Numbered from the stretch's first letter, positions 24,677 through 41,022 are shown. The stretch is DNA of 41,409 nucleotides from Escherichia coli (GCF_003334815.1 NZ_QOWO01000033.1); one strand, 5' to 3'. Notes: generated by a model from the letters alone, not told the origin. Made by a program: numbers and translations.

Positions 24677-25096
24677 TTATCTCTCAAGTTCGTTCAGTGC
24701 ATTTTTGACACGCTCTCTTAAACCGGCTTTCTCTTCGCTTTCTTCCACAGTATTTTCTTCGTCTTCAGAAGAAGAGGGGGCATTCTCAACCGCGACGCCT
24801 GGGTCATCTTCCTCCTCGACGGATTCGACGACGGGGAGTGGCTGTTTTTTGAAGAAATAGTGTTGTGTTGATTGTTTAAAAGCGGGCGTTTCAGCCTCTA
24901 CAGTGACTTCGGCTTTTACTATCCAAAGCACCCATAGCTGCCTGGCATACCCACCAACCAGCACCATTCCTGCAAACCACAGGCAAATCAGTAATAAACA
25001 AATTACATATATTATGGTGCTGTGTTTTTGTCGGGAGAAGATACCAGGGTGACCTGTTTCTTTCTGCTCACGCGCGGCGATATAGAATTCAAACAT
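24677..25096 (-). CDS. gspB: Type II secretion accessory protein GspB (139 aa)
   Basis: Track ORF; N-terminal transmembrane segment and acidic C-terminus; lies downstream of gspA. Confidence 0.85.
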   Translation of the reverse strand: MFEFYIAAREQKETGHPGIFSRQKHSTIIYVICLLLICLWFAGMVLVGGYARQLWVLWIVKAEVTVEAETPAFKQSTQHYFFKKQPLPVVESVEEEDDPGVAVENAPSSSEDEENTVEESEEKAGLRERVKNALNELER

Positions 25097-25097
25097 G

Positions 25098-26567
25098 TCA
25101 TTTCCCCTTCACTGTTGTTTCCGGGGAAATATTTGCTTCATCCCGATATAAGTAGGCACTCTCCCCTGCCACCTGCCAGAGATGTACTAACGTTGAAAAG
25201 CCAACAACACCGTCAGTTTTCAAGTGGTGGCTTTTTTGAAATTGCTTTATTTTTTCTACCAACAAGGGACGCCACTCCGCCGAAGGTTCTGTCGAAATAT
25301 GCAATGCGCGGTTTAACATCGTTTCCAGCCAGAGAATCTCTTCCTCGCTGCTATCACGCGTAATGGTACTCTCCCCTTCCGGCGACATTTTCCACAACAG
25401 AAGATAATCACCCGTCCATACCGACTCAAACCATTTATGTGTCAGCGTCCACGTTTGCTGACCTACGAGGACATCAACGCTAGCCTCACCGACGCGAACG
25501 ACCACAACAGGCAATTTTTTGTCCCCGACTTTAAGCGATGCGATCCAGGGCAAATTCTGATCTACCAATGTTTGTAAAGAAGCATTCCCACTTTTACATA
25601 CCAGCCCCGCTCTTACTGCCTGATCGCACCAGGCCGAATCAGCTGGGACCTCGTACCCCCATACGCCGTATAACACGCTTAGCGCCTCACTATCGCGCAT
25701 CACCACATGAGCAATATCCTTAGTCATATCTTGTTTAACTACTGGCGTTACGGGTATCAGCCACGCAGGAACGGGTAACGTAGCTGTAAAAGAGGACAGC
25801 AGTAGCCAACCACAGGTAAGAGCGATAATGGTTCCACTCATCACCACGGCAAGCTGCATTTTCCGGGGGCGGTTATCACCCAATATGCGGTAAATCATTC
25901 GCCATTGTTTTGCTGTGAAAACGCTGGTCTGCTCGGCTTGCTGTAATAAGCGAATTGTTTCGCCGGCAAGCGCCAGCTTTCTGCGATCGCCCCGACATAA
26001 TAAAGCTATCCGTTTCAGAACTCTGGCGGTTAAAAGGAGATCGGGTTGGTCAATATTCTGACCTTCAAGGATGCTTGCCTTAAGTTCGTGCTCCGTCAGA
26101 CGTCCTATCGAGACAAGTTCAATGCCCTGTTTTTTAAAATCACGTTCGACTTTTCGATCGGGTCTGCCGATCAGCAAAAATTGACCGTCAGGAATAAGAG
26201 ATATTGCGCGTTGGAGATCATCAAGTATGCGGCGGTGATTCAGGTGAGCATTTTCAATAATAATAAGAGGGCAGCGACTATCAGTTCGATGAAGCGCATG
26301 CAGTAATTGCCCCGCCATCTCATCTCGCGTCCAGGCGCTGTCACGGCAGCCCTGTTCAGCCGCGTTATCGTCGGTAACGATCCATGCGGCCTTACCTTGC
26401 CAGGAAACAACGAGGCTTAAAGTAATCACACGGCGATGTTTATCTTTTTGCAGTTGCTGCGCCAGCCAGGTTTTTCCACTTCCAGCCTCACCCAACAAAT
26501 AGCATAGACGCCAGGTTTGACGTTTCTCACACAACCAGGAAAGAATAACTTCTCTTCTCGTAGACAT
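25098..26567 (-). CDS. gspA: Type II secretion accessory protein GspA (489 aa), P-loop ATPase with a C-terminal peptidoglycan-binding-like domain
   Basis: Track ORF; Walker A motif GEAGSGKT near the N-terminus. Confidence 0.88.
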   Translation of the reverse strand: MSTRREVILSWLCEKRQTWRLCYLLGEAGSGKTWLAQQLQKDKHRRVITLSLVVSWQGKAAWIVTDDNAAEQGCRDSAWTRDEMAGQLLHALHRTDSRCPLIIIENAHLNHRRILDDLQRAISLIPDGQFLLIGRPDRKVERDFKKQGIELVSIGRLTEHELKASILEGQNIDQPDLLLTARVLKRIALLCRGDRRKLALAGETIRLLQQAEQTSVFTAKQWRMIYRILGDNRPRKMQLAVVMSGTIIALTCGWLLLSSFTATLPVPAWLIPVTPVVKQDMTKDIAHVVMRDSEALSVLYGVWGYEVPADSAWCDQAVRAGLVCKSGNASLQTLVDQNLPWIASLKVGDKKLPVVVVRVGEASVDVLVGQQTWTLTHKWFESVWTGDYLLLWKMSPEGESTITRDSSEEEILWLETMLNRALHISTEPSAEWRPLLVEKIKQFQKSHHLKTDGVVGFSTLVHLWQVAGESAYLYRDEANISPETTVKGK

Positions 26568-26746
26568 AGAACTTCCTGTTTTAATTATTGATTATCCTTA
26601 ATCATAAAAATAATGTATGTATTTATTAATTAAATACATATTACTAATATAAATAAATTTTGCTTGATTCATGCAAGCGGCATTAATACTATTTATACTA
26701 ACGTCAATATACAACCCACCCAATCTATTTTATTAGAACATACATC
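26568..26746. promoter_or_regulatory. Divergent gspA / gspC promoter region, strongly AT-rich
   Basis: 179-bp intergenic gap between divergently oriented genes. The gsp locus of K-12 is known to be H-NS-silenced, which fits the AT-richness. Confidence 0.5.
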
Positions 26747-38160: not shown

Positions 38161-38250
38161 AGAGACTCCCGTATACTTTCTTCAAAAATAAATGAAAATA
38201 GTTCTTATTTCAATTACGGAAAGACTCTTTTTTAAGCAAAGAATAGAAAT

Positions 38251-38286
38251 ATGAATAAAAATAATGGGCTACCAAAAGTAGCCCAT
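38251..38286 (-). terminator. Candidate chiA terminator (ATGGGCTAC-loop-GTAGCCCAT followed by a T-rich run on the minus strand)
   Basis: 9-bp perfect stem read directly, about 40 nt after the chiA stop. Confidence 0.55.
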
Positions 38287-38328
38287 TGACAAAAAATGCG
38301 GCGATACTGGAAGGTATCGCCAACACAT

Positions 38329-41022
38329 TTATTGCTTAGTAAACGGCGCGAAGATTTCGCTAAATGCGTACTTCGGTGCCTGTTCTTTAGTCAGGCCGTG
38401 GAATTCCGGAGACAGGTTAGTGCCGCCCGGCAGGTCGCGCGCGATTGACCAGATACCAACCATACCGAGATTACGCTTCTGCGCATCCTGCATGACCAGA
38501 CGAGCATCAGAGAGATAGAACACCTCGCCCTGAACGTCGTTCACGCCAACCATCGGCGTGGTACCCATCATAGCGTCAATTTCTGCATCGCTCTTATTGG
38601 GATGGAGGCCTTTCAATTGTGAATGCAGGTTGGCAATCGCAGACGTTGCACACTTACCGTGAATGTTCTGGCCTTCGGTATTTGCAGACTGACAAATCGC
38701 GTTACCGTAGTCCATTGTCATCACGTTCACACCCGCCAGCTCAACACCTTTCGCTTTGGCATCGCTCAGGACATTCATCCCTTCCGGCGTCAGGCCAGTC
38801 GGCAGAATTGGCAAGGTGTACCAGATAGCAATATCTTTGCCTTCTGACTTCCATTTATCCTGCACTTTCTTCACAGCAAGGTTACGACGTTCAATAGATG
38901 CCTGATCCGCAACCCAGGTGCCTTCGATATCGAAGTCCAGGACTTTGAGGTTCAGGTTATCAACGATGTCATAATAATGCTGCATCAGATCGTCTACGTT
39001 CTTACAGGAAGCAGCCAGCGGAGCGTTGTTAGCACCACCGATAGACAGCATCACATCGCCGCCAGCCTCACGCAGAGCTTTGATTTTGCTGTACTGAGCG
39101 TAATTCTGCATACCGTAAGCGGTACCCCATGTCGGCAGACAGGTGTTCGCATCTTTACTCACCACAAACGCCAGCGTGAAGTGGTTGACGTTATGATTCT
39201 TAGCCAGCGCAGCCAGATCCGGGATCGTATTCAGCGTAAAGTCGACATACGGTGCATAAACGTGTTTCGGCCACGCTTTCTTCGGCGTACCTACGCGCTC
39301 TTTGGTTCCGGTCCAGTCAACAAAAACACGCCACGGGTTGCTGTCAGAAGGAGAAACTTTCTGCACTTTACTCTGAGAAATGTAGTTCACACCGTTAAAG
39401 CGAATCAGCGTATCGCTGGCATAAAGCGTTTCTGGATTAAACTGCGGCGCATTATTCAGCTCTTCGTTGCTATAGCTCTGAGCCTTACCTAACGGCTTCC
39501 ACGGGCGGCTATTGCTACCGGTGGCGTTTTGGTTCGCCACCAGAGCAGGGTTGTCACTTTGCGTCCAGAACAGCGCTTCATAAGCCTGCCCATCAACAAC
39601 AACGCGATCACCTTTCACGTACACAGTGGATGCGGACCATGCTTTCGCCGGTTCGTATTTCTTCCACGGGTTATCGCCGCCCGGGACAAAGCCCCATGCG
39701 TCTTGATCGACAGAAGTTTTATAATGTGCATCGTTATAATCTACGATGCTGTCCGCGCTGTACGCTTTGCTGGCCTGGAAACCATCCGCAACAATGACGC
39801 CGCCGTTATCAATTTCACAGGTAGTCGGGTTACCGTACTGACTCAATTCCGCAGCGGTAGCTGTACGCTCGAGACGCCATGGGTTATTGGAGTTTTCAGC
39901 GCTGGTACCCCGTGGGCAATCTTTAGACCCAACCCACCAGGCGTTCTTGTAAACATTACCATTGAAAATAACATGGTAAATTTCGCTACCTTCCTGGCCG
40001 CTCCACGCTTGCAATGAGTAATCGTTAACGCTATCCGCTGGTGTTGATGGCTCGCTGTTATCCGGAGTTGGGGTCACCGGTGTTTCCGGAGTTGGATCAA
40101 CCGGAGTCACAGCACCGCCATTATTATCCGGCTTAACGGAACAGGAGCCAGGGTTACCATACTGGCTGATTTCTGTTGCCGTTGCCGCGCGAACATAACG
40201 CCATGGGTTACTGGCATCGTTTTCTTTCGCATCGCCTGGGCAATTTGCCGCGCCTACCCACTAGGCGTTCTTATAAATGCCGCCGTTATAGATAACGTAC
40301 CATGTAGAAGAACCTTCCTGACCTTTCCAGGCTACTACAGCATAGTTGTCGTTTGACTTATCAGCTGGGGCTGGCTGAACATCAGGAGCCGGTTTAACGT
40401 CCGGTGCCGGTTTCACATCCGGTGAAGGCTGTGGTGCTGAAGTACAGGACTGTGGATTACTGGTTTCTGAGATTTCCGTTGCCGTAGCGGCACGAACATA
40501 ACGCCATGGGTTGCTGGCATCATTGCTTTTCGCATCACCCGGACAGTTAGAAGAGGCTACCCACCAGGCATTTTTATATACCGCACCATTAAAGACGACA
40601 TACCAGGTCTGACCGCCCTGCTGTTTATTCCAGGCAACTACAGAAGAATTAGACGGAACAGTGCCCTGTGCTGGTGTAGCCGAACCGCCATTAGCCGGCG
40701 TATTGGATGCAGGCGTATTTGAATTTGAAGAAGATGAGCTGCCGCTCTTTTCGCAGGAAAGTGTATTGCCAAACTGACTAATTTCAGCAGCTGTTGCGGT
40801 ACGCTTTAAACGCCACGGGTTAGTTGCATCATTTGCTTTCGCTTTTCCCGGGCAATTTGTAGAAGAAACCCACCAGGCATTTTCATAAATTTTGCCATCG
40901 AAAATAACCTGATATTTATTACCACCTTGTTGGTTATTCCATGCTTCCATTGCCAATGCTGGCAGAGCGGAACACACCAGCCCCATACCAATCATAGATT
41001 TAGTAAATATATTTAATTTCAT
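38329..41022 (-). pseudogene. chiA: Periplasmic endochitinase ChiA: full 897-codon frame interrupted by an in-frame amber codon at 40261..40263 (Trp to stop within the ...KNAWWVGAAN... repeat)
   Basis: Track ORFs 40261..41022 (signal peptide plus two chitin-binding repeats) and 38329..40110 (remaining repeat plus GH18 catalytic domain) are in the same frame. Manual translation of 40111..40260 is open and continuous. The only interruption is TAG at the first Trp of a motif that reads AWWV in three other copies within the same protein. Confidence 0.8.

What the first reader, a model, noticed from the sequence alone, without database searches (positions are those of the whole stretch)
24677..41022. 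Cryptic type II secretion cluster and its chitinase substrate sit as an accessory block between the S10 operon and tufA
A complete gspAB / gspC-O gene set (secretin, ATPase, platform, five pseudopilins, prepilin peptidase), followed by bfr-bfd and chiA, occupies about 16 kb between rpsJ and tufA. In K-12 this T2SS is transcriptionally silent under laboratory conditions and ChiA is its described substrate. The gsp genes look intact here, and tight start/stop overlaps suggest translational coupling across much of the operon. The only apparent lesion in the secretion-plus-substrate module is the chiA amber codon. That is known biology, but the intact machine paired with a broken substrate gene is worth noting.
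Basis: partly seen in the sequence, partly recalled or inferred. Interest (0 to 1): 0.4.

Follow-up and report, generated by a model that had tools for sequence, protein, structure and literature searches.

The report
Known E. coli secretion cluster, broken chitinase
This is the well-known silent K-12-type type II secretion cluster of E. coli with its chitinase gene chiA, and the only unusual feature is a rare, naturally occurring stop codon in chiA at a known mutation hotspot, so the finding is correct but ordinary.

Summary
gspB and gspA run leftward and gspC-M plus gspO run rightward. bfr, bfd and chiA follow, between rpsJ and tufA. All 14 gsp reading frames are open, and 7 of the 11 junctions in gspC-O overlap.

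Over 17,010 bases the window differs from E. coli K-12 MG1655 at only 5 positions. One of them is TGG>TAG at chiA codon 254. That stop removes both Pfam-detected CBM_5_12 modules and the GH18 catalytic domain.

The amber allele is real and rare: 4 of 5,426 complete E. coli genomes carry it, and RefSeq already annotates it as an "internal stop" pseudogene. It sits at the inner C of a Dcm site (CCAGG>CTAGG), the classic 5-methylcytosine deamination change. It recurs on a background that is only 97.2% identical. Amber alleles also occur at the paralogous Dcm sites W50 and W362, but at none of three adjacent non-Dcm Trp codons.

About 57% of E. coli genomes carry the block. The rest carry a 1.5-kb alternative with a short peptidase and a bfr-bfd pair only 77% identical.

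An intact machine beside a broken substrate gene is what drift predicts in so young a lineage. Other E. coli genomes show IS insertions and frameshifts in the gsp genes. This is known biology and of low interest.

The parts
24624..41261 (.). Variable (accessory) haplotype block: gspBA, gspC-O, bfr, bfd and chiA
   Evidence: In O157:H7 and ETEC genomes, identity to the window ends at 24623 and resumes at 41262. Between those points they have 1.5 kb instead of 16.6 kb.
24677..25096 (-). gspB
   Evidence: NCBIfam NF007250, 287 bits against a cut-off of 180. Identical to the K-12 protein.
25098..26567 (-). gspA (AAA ATPase, C39-like domain and peptidoglycan-binding domain); A323V relative to K-12
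   Evidence: Pfam AAA_22, GspA_C39-like and PG_binding_1. Open frame; the A323V allele is shared with strain 52F4.
26568..26746 (.). 179-bp divergent gspA/gspC regulatory region, 22.9% GC; published SlyA site at 26641-26652
   Evidence: Composition and motif position. PMC5797941 reports SlyA binding to this 179-bp region and H-NS repression.
26747..27562 (+). gspC (GTG start)
   Evidence: TIGR01713, 293.6 bits against 101.6. Overlaps gspD by 17 nt.
27546..29498 (+). gspD secretin
   Evidence: TIGR02517, 649 bits against 351. Identical to K-12.
29508..30989 (+). gspE ATPase
   Evidence: TIGR02533, 656.8 bits against 630.25.
30986..32182 (+). gspF inner-membrane platform
   Evidence: TIGR02120, 548.7 bits against 424. 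4-nt overlap with gspE.
32192..32629 (+). gspG major pseudopilin
   Evidence: TIGR01710, 184.3 bits against 88.85.
32637..33146 (+). gspH minor pseudopilin; rare R87C allele (C>T at 32895)
   Evidence: TIGR01708, 168.7 bits against 80. This exact protein is on only 6 public contigs. Homologues mostly have R or Q at this position.
33143..33520 (+). gspI minor pseudopilin
   Evidence: TIGR01707, 132.8 bits against 44.35.
33513..34100 (+). gspJ minor pseudopilin
   Evidence: TIGR01711, 63.2 bits, just under the 64.85 cut-off. Translation identical to the K-12 protein that RefSeq names GspJ, WP_000610634.1.
34093..35076 (+). gspK minor pseudopilin
   Evidence: NF037980, 251.3 bits against 130.
35091..36254 (+). 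gspL
   Evidence: TIGR01709, 148.3 bits against 65.
36251..36712 (+). gspM
   Evidence: Pfam T2SSM, E 5.8e-38.
36712..37389 (+). gspO prepilin peptidase (G16, the common allele; K-12 has D16)
   Evidence: Pfam Peptidase_A24, E 3.6e-30. This exact protein is on at least 1000 contigs.
37418..37894 (-). bfr, K-12-type allele, part of the variable block
   Evidence: TIGR00754. bfr-bfd is only 77.4% identical at DNA level to the O157-type allele.
37966..38160 (-). bfd
   Evidence: NF007803.
38329..41022 (-). chiA pseudogene (897 codons with one internal amber)
   Evidence: Translation. RefSeq annotates the identical sequence in strain 52F4 as 'internal stop'.
40261..40265 (.). Mutated Dcm site: CTAGG here, CCAGG in K-12. 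The C>T at 40262 makes amber codon 254 (40261-40263 on the - strand).
   Evidence: Sequence. This is the only chiA difference from K-12. Dcm-site analysis.
41023..41261 (.). AT-rich chiA upstream region inside the variable block (the chiA-tuf spacer 41023-41313 is 29.9% GC)
   Evidence: Composition. PMC5797941 states that chiA is H-NS-silenced.
41263..41290 (-). tufA terminator hairpin, marking the right edge of the block
   Evidence: Terminator scan. Identity with O157 resumes at 41262.

Best explanation
The region is the chromosomal K-12-type ('alpha') type II secretion locus of a phylogroup-A-like E. coli. It is almost base-for-base identical to MG1655.

How the system works (from established knowledge of T2SS, not tested here): GspO processes the pseudopilins GspG-K. 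GspE, F, L, M and C form the inner-membrane motor and platform. GspD forms the outer-membrane channel, and GspA/B help secretin assembly through the cell wall. ChiA, a GH18 chitinase/lysozyme with a Sec signal peptide and chitin-binding repeats, is the one described cargo. H-NS silences both gspC-O and chiA through their AT-rich control regions.

In this strain chiA is a pseudogene. A single C>T transition at the inner cytosine of a Dcm site (CCAGG>CTAGG) turns Trp254 into an amber stop. At most, the gene now makes a 253-residue N-terminal fragment. That fragment lacks half of the third repeat, the fourth repeat, both CBM_5_12 modules and the catalytic domain.

The most likely cause is deamination of 5-methylcytosine. 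That mechanism makes this codon, and the equivalent 'Ala-Trp-Trp' codon in the other repeats, recurrent amber hotspots.

The secretion genes are still intact because the lesion is very recent and the module is under weak selection. Nothing shows that the machine is being retained for another purpose.
For: Identity to K-12: 5 differences in 17,010 nt, and 3 differences from the calf strain 52F4, which carries the same amber. Over the rest of the window, 52F4 differs at 3 more sites.

Components: all gsp frames are open. Family assignments come from NCBIfam and Pfam. Overlapping junctions are confirmed.

Domains lost: CBM_5_12 at 415-494 and GH18 at 609-805 both lie downstream of codon 254.

The allele is real: the exact 40-mer is in 4 of 5,426 complete genomes, and all four chiA genes are annotated 'internal stop'.

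Dcm signature: the wild-type coding strand reads GCC TGG TGG, with CCTGG in frame. Only 10 of the 310 possible nonsense substitutions in chiA are of this type. The mechanism is described in PMC2715241.

Recurrence: the mouse strain LI60C3 carries the same amber on a background with 461 mismatches per 17 kb. In chiA coordinates the nearest differences lie 19 nt upstream and 52 nt downstream of the mutated base. Amber alleles also exist at paralogous Dcm sites: W362 in one genome and W50 in one genome, both annotated 'internal stop'. None was found at the adjacent non-Dcm codons W51, W255 and W363.

Weak selection on the module: two of the four W254* genomes also have gsp lesions, a gspC frameshift and an IS5 deletion spanning gspA-gspC. 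Six of 35 cluster-bearing genomes sampled evenly down the ranking were split into two aligned pieces. The five checked have IS elements within or at the edges of gsp coding sequences (gspA twice, gspK, gspO, and one with a large deletion), and two also carry frameshifts; the sixth lists an ISEcp1 element.

Silencing: the gspA-gspC spacer is 22.9% GC and the chiA upstream region 29.9%. H-NS and SlyA control is reported in PMC5797941, and PMC11390585 cites Francetic 2000 for H-NS repression and gsp-dependent ChiA secretion.
Against: Nothing here measures expression, secretion or Dcm methylation in this strain. The dcm gene is outside the window.

The hotspot test is small. At least 4 events fall at 4 Dcm codons and 0 at 3 control codons. 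If all 7 sites were equally mutable, that split would still occur about 11% of the time. One Dcm paralogue, W153, gave no hit.

The three K-12-like W254* carriers may share one ancestral mutation, so only two independent origins of W254* are firm.

GspH R87C is rare and replaces a mostly conserved R/Q, so the machine may not be fully functional despite open frames.

Other T2SS-alpha substrates cannot be excluded.
Confidence: 0.85

Rival explanations
1. Loss of ChiA is adaptive. The amber alleles are repeatedly selected in animal-gut commensals, and the secretion machine is kept because it exports other, unknown cargo.
For: W254* arose at least twice, and W50* and W362* also exist. All four W254* carriers and the W50* carrier come from animals: calf, cattle, pig, mouse, cattle. 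PMC11390585 finds gsp and chiA in 29% of bovine commensal isolates against 63% of mastitis isolates.
Against: A mutational hotspot explains the recurrence without selection. Half of the W254* carriers have also lost gsp genes, which argues against retaining the machine. The numbers are tiny and hosts in the collection were not controlled for. The W362* carrier is from a human.
Confidence: 0.08
2. The 253-residue N-terminal fragment (signal peptide, two complete chitin-binding repeats and part of a third) is still made and exported, and acts as a non-catalytic lectin or adhesin.
For: The signal peptide and the first two repeats are intact. Published work attributes host binding by ChiA to its chitin-binding domains rather than to catalysis (PMC11390585; PMC11486038).
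Against: The residues implicated in CHI3L1 binding (362, 370, 378, 388, 548) all lie downstream of the stop. The third repeat is cut within its conserved Ala-Trp-Trp motif. The gene is H-NS-silenced. W50* would leave almost nothing, yet it also occurs.
Confidence: 0.04
3. The stop codon is a sequencing or assembly error, or it is read through by an amber suppressor, so ChiA is actually functional.
For: It is a single-base difference from K-12. Suppressor tRNAs cannot be checked within this window.
Against: The identical allele is present in four independently sequenced complete genomes. The window has no tRNA genes bearing on this: Rfam found only the alpha-operon leader. From general knowledge, natural isolates rarely carry amber suppressors.
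Confidence: 0.03

Closest known systems
E. coli K-12 endogenous type II secretion system (T2SS-alpha; gspAB, gspC-O) with chitinase ChiA/YheB (Francetic & Pugsley 1996; Francetic et al. 2000, as cited in PMC5797941 and PMC11390585)
   Same: Same locus, gene order, overlaps and regulatory spacer. 17,005 of 17,010 nt are identical to MG1655. GspB, C, D, E, F, G, I, J, K, L, M, Bfr and Bfd are identical at protein level.
   Different: chiA W254* is a pseudogene here. The other differences are GspA A323V, GspH R87C, GspO G16 (K-12 has D16) and one intergenic SNP at 24654.
The same chiA W254* pseudogene allele in RefSeq complete genomes 52F4, F3_13_1_3, HCP6S3_I1 and LI60C3
   Same: Identical amber codon, already annotated 'internal stop'. 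52F4 differs from the whole 41.4-kb window at only 6 sites.
   Different: F3_13_1_3 also has a gspC frameshift. HCP6S3_I1 has an IS5-associated deletion spanning gspA-gspC and an IS1 next to chiA. In the window and in 52F4 all gsp frames are open.
Dcm (CCWGG) 5-methylcytosine deamination hotspots, which classically generate amber codons in lacI (Coulondre et al. 1978, from memory) and are countered by Vsr very-short-patch repair (PMC2715241)
   Same: The change is inner-C to T in CCAGG, giving CTAGG and a TAG codon. It recurs on independent backgrounds and at paralogous sites.
   Different: Seen here as natural polymorphism in an accessory gene, not in a laboratory reporter. Methylation status in these strains is not known.
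The alternative E. coli haplotype at rpsJ-tufA (O157:H7, ETEC and others). From memory it resembles the Salmonella hopD-bfr-bfd arrangement.
   Same: Same flanks up to 24623 and from 41262. It has a bfr-bfd pair and an A24 peptidase gene next to bfr.
   Different: No gspAB, no gspC-M and no chiA. Its peptidase is 155 aa and aligns only to the C-terminal part of GspO with low identity. Its bfr-bfd is 77% identical at DNA level.
Positional homologues in other Enterobacterales: Enterobacteriaceae bacterium UBA5654, Enterobacter sichuanensis, Trabulsiella, Yokenella, Citrobacter amalonaticus S646, Chimaeribacter, Rahnella
   Same: A gsp operon lies between bfr and rpsJ. In UBA5654, Enterobacter and Trabulsiella a chiA homologue lies between tuf and bfd.
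   Different: Protein identities are far lower. In UBA5654 they are GspD 83%, GspE 79% and ChiA 73%; the others have GspD at 60-69%. Most other genera have only the short peptidase, or nothing, at this site.

Membership tests
Type II secretion system (Gsp) | Outer-membrane secretin GspD | tested here: met
   TIGR02517, 649 bits against a cut-off of 351; open 650-codon frame.
Type II secretion system (Gsp) | Cytoplasmic ATPase GspE and polytopic platform protein GspF | tested here: met
   TIGR02533, 656.8 bits against 630.25. TIGR02120, 548.7 bits against 424.
Type II secretion system (Gsp) | Assembly-platform proteins GspC, GspL and GspM | tested here: met
   TIGR01713, 293.6 bits against 101.6. 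TIGR01709, 148.3 bits against 65. Pfam T2SSM, E 5.8e-38.
Type II secretion system (Gsp) | Major pseudopilin GspG and minor pseudopilins GspH, I and K | tested here: met
   TIGR01710, TIGR01708, TIGR01707 and NF037980 all score above their cut-offs.
Type II secretion system (Gsp) | Minor pseudopilin GspJ | tested here: inconclusive
   TIGR01711 scores 63.2 bits, just under the 64.85 cut-off. The prepilin N-terminal motif is present, the gene sits between gspI and gspK, and the protein is identical to the one RefSeq names GspJ.
Type II secretion system (Gsp) | Prepilin peptidase (A24 family) | tested here: met
   Pfam Peptidase_A24, E 3.6e-30, residues 82-190. No NCBIfam hit.
Type II secretion system (Gsp) | Secretion of a folded periplasmic substrate across the outer membrane | not testable with these tools
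   Needs secretome or enzyme assays. The literature reports it for the near-identical K-12 system once H-NS silencing is relieved (PMC11390585 and PMC5797941, citing Francetic 2000).
E. coli K-12 T2SS-alpha / ChiA locus | Same chromosomal position (rpsJ to tufA), same gene order, near-identical sequence | tested here: met
   100% coverage and 5 mismatches in 17,010 nt against MG1655.
E. coli K-12 T2SS-alpha / ChiA locus | H-NS silencing of gspC-O and chiA | not testable with these tools
   Only the sequence correlate was checked. The regulatory regions are 22.9% and 29.9% GC, and the published SlyA site is present at 26641.
Functional GH18 chitinase ChiA | Uninterrupted reading frame that encodes the GH18 domain behind a signal peptide | tested here: not met
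   Amber at codon 254. GH18 lies at 609-805. The next in-frame start, GTG at 40110, would give a product without a signal peptide.
Dcm 5-methylcytosine deamination hotspot | C>T at the inner cytosine of CCWGG | tested here: met
   K-12 has CCAGG and the window has CTAGG at 40261-40265.
Dcm 5-methylcytosine deamination hotspot | Recurrence at the same and equivalent sites, more often than at neighbouring non-Dcm sites | tested here: inconclusive
   W254* has at least 2 origins, and W50* and W362* have 1 genome each, against 0 at W51, W255 and W363. W153* also gave 0. The direction is as expected but the test is underpowered.
Dcm 5-methylcytosine deamination hotspot | The site is methylated by Dcm in the strain | not testable with these tools
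   The dcm gene and methylation data are outside the window.

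The most novel reading that the evidence does not exclude
The conserved Ala-Trp-Trp motif of each ChiA chitin-binding repeat is encoded as GCC-TGG-TGG, so each repeat contains an in-frame amber-capable Dcm site. chiA may therefore be unusually prone to recurrent knock-out. The amber alleles at W50, W254 and W362 may be enriched in animal-gut commensal lineages by selection against ChiA, not by drift alone.
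Probability: 0.08. Interest if true: 0.35.

Novelty: already known. Interest (0 to 1): 0.14.

Why it matters
It matters little. The secretion system, its silencing, its chitinase cargo and its accessory distribution are all published. The stop-codon allele itself is already flagged as a pseudogene in RefSeq genomes.

Three points are modestly useful:
- A strain of this lineage cannot make ChiA. That is relevant if ChiA-dependent adhesion or mucus phenotypes are studied.
- The lesion has a clear mutational explanation, a Dcm hotspot that repeats in each chitin-binding repeat.
- The accessory unit is a whole-haplotype swap that includes bfr-bfd. This explains why pan-genome studies list bfr and bfd as 'accessory' alongside gsp and chiA.

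Tried and rejected
- **Foreign-origin signal from composition:** rejected. The block is 48.8% GC and the left flank 49.9%. GC3 of most gsp genes is 0.50-0.58. Only gspC and the regulatory spacers are AT-rich.
- **Promoter and terminator scans:** counts were no higher than in shuffled sequence, so they are not used as evidence, except for the clear tufA terminator hairpin.
- **Rfam scan of the whole window:** only the alpha-operon leader was found.
- **Exact look-up of the 253-aa ChiA fragment:** not in the protein collection, so it could not measure how widespread the allele is in draft assemblies.
- **Francetic et al. 2000 (PMC305903):** not held. It is cited only through papers that cite it.
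- **Bfr scan of genome contigs:** the 80 returned loci included no named E. coli, Shigella or Salmonella. The Salmonella comparison therefore rests on memory.
- **Sequencing-error and suppression explanations:** considered and set aside (see rivals).
- **More gsp decay in amber carriers than in other strains:** 2 of 4 against about 6 of 35. The numbers are too small to claim a difference.

Full report
**What is there**

- rpsJ ends at 24439.
- gspB (24677-25096) and gspA (25098-26567) are on the minus strand.
- A 179-bp spacer follows.
- gspC, D, E, F, G, H, I, J, K, L, M and O run from 26747 to 37389 on the plus strand.
- bfr (37418-37894), bfd (37966-38160) and chiA (38329-41022) are on the minus strand.
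- The last 96 nt of tufA start at 41314.

Family searches agree with the names. NCBIfam equivalog models score above their cut-offs for GspB, C, D, E, F, G, H, I, K, L, Bfr and Bfd. GspJ falls just under its cut-off, 63.2 against 64.85 bits. Pfam gives T2SSM for GspM, Peptidase_A24 for GspO, and AAA, C39-like and peptidoglycan-binding domains for GspA.

No gsp gene has an internal stop or a frameshift. Seven of the eleven junctions within gspC-O overlap, by 17, 4, 4, 8, 8, 4 and 1 nt, and the other four have gaps of 7-14 nt. This fits translational coupling, but coupling is inferred, not shown.

**How close it is to K-12**

Over window 24400-41409 (17,010 nt) the sequence differs from E. coli K-12 MG1655 at five positions:
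- 24654, intergenic
- 25600, GspA A323V
- 32895, GspH R87C
- 36758, GspO with G16 where K-12 has D16
- 40262, ChiA W254*

The nearest complete genome is the Swiss calf isolate 52F4. It differs at 3 positions in this stretch and 3 more in the remaining 24.4 kb, and it carries the same amber. The rest of the window is the ordinary yrdA-aroE-def/fmt-alpha/spc/S10 ribosomal-protein region.

**The chiA lesion**

Translating chiA gives one in-frame TAG at codon 254, inside the 'YKNAWWV' motif of the third of four N-terminal repeats. The stop therefore removes every detected carbohydrate-binding module and the catalytic domain. The next in-frame start is a GTG at 40110, which would give a product without a signal peptide.

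The allele is not an error. A 40-mer centred on it requires an exact 28-nt seed spanning the variant base. It matches 4 of 5,426 complete E. coli genomes: 52F4 (calf), F3_13_1_3 (cattle), HCP6S3_I1 (pig) and LI60C3 (mouse). RefSeq annotates chiA as 'internal stop' in all four.

**Why that codon**

On the plus strand K-12 reads CCAGG and the window reads CTAGG (40261-40265). On the coding strand this is GCC-TGG to GCC-TAG. It is a C>T change at the inner cytosine of a Dcm site, the signature of 5-methylcytosine deamination, which very-short-patch repair normally counters (PMC2715241). From memory, this is the classic lacI amber hotspot of Coulondre et al. 1978. Only 10 of the 310 possible single-base nonsense changes in chiA are of this type.

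The same amber occurs in LI60C3, whose 17-kb region has 461 mismatches to the window. In chiA coordinates, its nearest differences lie 19 nt upstream and 52 nt downstream of the mutated base. An independent origin is far more likely than recombination.

All four repeats encode Ala-Trp-Trp as GCC-TGG-TGG, so each has an equivalent site. I tested the predicted amber alleles:

| Codon | Site type | Genomes with the amber allele |
|---|---|---|
| W50 | Dcm | 1 (XJ5.2, cattle), annotated 'internal stop' |
| W153 | Dcm | 0 |
| W254 | Dcm | 4 |
| W362 | Dcm | 1 (2017.02.04CC, human), annotated 'internal stop' |
| W51 | adjacent, non-Dcm | 0 |
| W255 | adjacent, non-Dcm | 0 |
| W363 | adjacent, non-Dcm | 0 |

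The direction is as predicted, but with so few events the contrast is only suggestive. If all seven sites were equally mutable, this split would still arise about 11% of the time.

**Is 'intact machine, broken substrate' meaningful?**

I think not. The lineage is separated from K-12, which has an intact chiA, by five substitutions in 17 kb. Only three of them fall in gsp coding sequence, so the chance that one would have been disruptive is small. Intact gsp frames are the null expectation.

Other genomes show that the module decays readily.
- Among the four W254* genomes, F3_13_1_3 also has a gspC frameshift. HCP6S3_I1 has an IS5-associated deletion from gspA into gspC and an IS1 beside chiA.
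- In an evenly spaced sample of the ranking, 35 genomes carried the cluster, and 6 of those were split into two aligned pieces.
- I checked five of the six. IS1 interrupts gspA, and ISVsa5 sits at the 5' end of gspA. IS2 lies at the gspM-gspO junction and truncates the annotated gspO start, in a genome that also has a gspC frameshift. ISEc52 interrupts gspK, in a genome that also has a gspO frameshift. ISKpn26 accompanies a large deletion. The sixth lists an ISEcp1 element.
- 'Intact' here means open frames only. GspH R87C is rare, on 6 public contigs, and replaces a residue that is R or Q in most homologues. Its effect is unknown.

**The accessory block**

Of 5,426 complete genomes, 3,119 carry at least 80% of gspB-gspO and 3,147 carry the chiA region. 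The remainder match only the first 184 nt of the gsp query, which is the spacer next to rpsJ.

In O157:H7 and ETEC representatives the locus reads rpsJ, a 155-aa A24 peptidase, bfr, bfd, tufA. Alignment shows near-identity to the window up to 24623 and again from 41262. In between, only bfr-bfd aligns, at 77.4% DNA identity, and the short peptidase gives no DNA match to gspO.

The polymorphism is therefore a swap of whole haplotypes, 16.6 kb against 1.5 kb, and bfr-bfd is part of it. This matches a pan-genome study of bovine E. coli. In it, all the gsp genes listed and chiA have the same frequencies, and bfr and bfd are scored as accessory with them (PMC11390585).

Composition does not mark the block as foreign. 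It is 48.8% GC against 49.9% for the left flank. Only the gspA-gspC spacer (22.9% GC), gspC itself and the chiA upstream region (29.9%) are AT-rich. That fits the reported H-NS silencing and SlyA binding at the 179-bp spacer. The published SlyA site is present at 26641 (PMC5797941).

**Outside E. coli**

A Bfr-anchored scan of one genome per species returned 80 loci across Enterobacterales.
- A gsp operon between bfr and rpsJ is found in Enterobacter, Trabulsiella, Yokenella, Citrobacter amalonaticus S646, Chimaeribacter, Rahnella and an unnamed Enterobacteriaceae MAG (UBA5654).
- UBA5654 is the closest relative: GspD 83%, GspE 79%, ChiA 73%.
- A chiA homologue between tuf and bfd accompanies the gsp operon in Enterobacter, Trabulsiella and UBA5654.
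- Many Enterobacteriaceae have only the short peptidase.
- Serratia, Proteus, Providencia, Xenorhabdus, Photorhabdus and several Erwinia and Pantoea have nothing between bfr and rpsJ.
- C. amalonaticus is polymorphic, like E. coli.
- The O157-type Bfr and Bfd are closer to most Enterobacteriaceae than the K-12 type is. This hints that the K-12-type block is the imported one, but it is a count of identities, not a phylogeny.

The block is patchy both within and between species.

**Verdict**

The system is the published K-12 T2SS-alpha with ChiA, and the amber allele is already annotated as a pseudogene in public genomes.

This check adds four things:
- exact block boundaries that include bfr-bfd
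- a mechanistic explanation for the lesion, a Dcm hotspot repeated in each chitin-binding repeat
- the allele's rarity and recurrence
- evidence that the pairing of an intact machine with a broken cargo gene has no special significance

Interest is low.

Noticed in passing
window 24624-41261, compared with L008 7185-8716: E. coli has two deeply diverged haplotypes between rpsJ and tufA. The short one carries a 155-aa A24 peptidase that aligns only weakly to the C-terminal part of GspO. Its bfr-bfd pair is only 77% identical in DNA, far above normal within-species divergence. The O157-type Bfr and Bfd look more like those of most Enterobacteriaceae than the K-12 type does.
   Followed up: partly
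window 32895 (gspH codon 87): A rare R87C substitution in the minor pseudopilin GspH. The exact protein is on only 6 public contigs, and homologues mostly have R or Q in a W-[RQ]-W motif. The change lies immediately 3' of a Dcm site but is not the Dcm-type position.
   Followed up: partly
chiA codons 50, 153, 254, 362 (window 40874, 40565, 40262, 39938): Each of the four N-terminal ChiA repeats encodes its conserved Ala-Trp-Trp as GCC-TGG-TGG. This places an in-frame, amber-capable Dcm site in every repeat. Natural amber alleles exist at three of the four.
   Followed up: yes
L005 3506-4320; L093 2308-3122: gspC is annotated as frameshifted (815 instead of 816 nt) in two genomes, F3_13_1_3 and ES2. 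They share the same GspD allele, so this is probably one lineage-specific single-base deletion.
   Followed up: no
L091, L092, L093, L094 (E. coli genomes from the spread sample): IS1, ISVsa5, IS2 and ISEc52 lie within or at the edges of gspA, gspO and gspK coding sequences, not in the AT-rich promoter spacer. They look like decay, not activation of the silent operon.
   Followed up: partly
L017 versus L024 (Citrobacter amalonaticus S646 and AUH_CA_2023_1): C. amalonaticus shows the same presence/absence polymorphism as E. coli at this site. One strain has a full gsp operon next to bfr. The other has only a fragmented short peptidase gene.
   Followed up: no
window 33513-34100 (gspJ): GspJ scores 63.2 bits against the NCBIfam TIGR01711 cut-off of 64.85. 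The K-12-type GspJ therefore sits just outside the curated equivalog threshold, although it is universally named GspJ.
   Followed up: no
window 1 and 41409 (ends): The window ends 96 nt into tufA. Public contigs carrying these gsp alleles are typically about 41-42 kb, one of them exactly 41,409 bases. The window is probably a whole draft-assembly contig bounded by repeated sequence (the tufA/tufB duplication). I did not check the left end, which I presume abuts an rRNA operon.
   Followed up: no
window 13608-13719 (-): The Rfam Alpha_RBS element (alpha-operon leader) was the only RNA family hit in the window. It is expected and ordinary.
   Followed up: yes
window 28770 (gspD codon 409): Strain 52F4 differs from the window and from K-12 by W409R in the secretin GspD. 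The codon lies within another CCTGG Dcm site, but the change is a T/A transversion, not a Dcm-type change.
   Followed up: no
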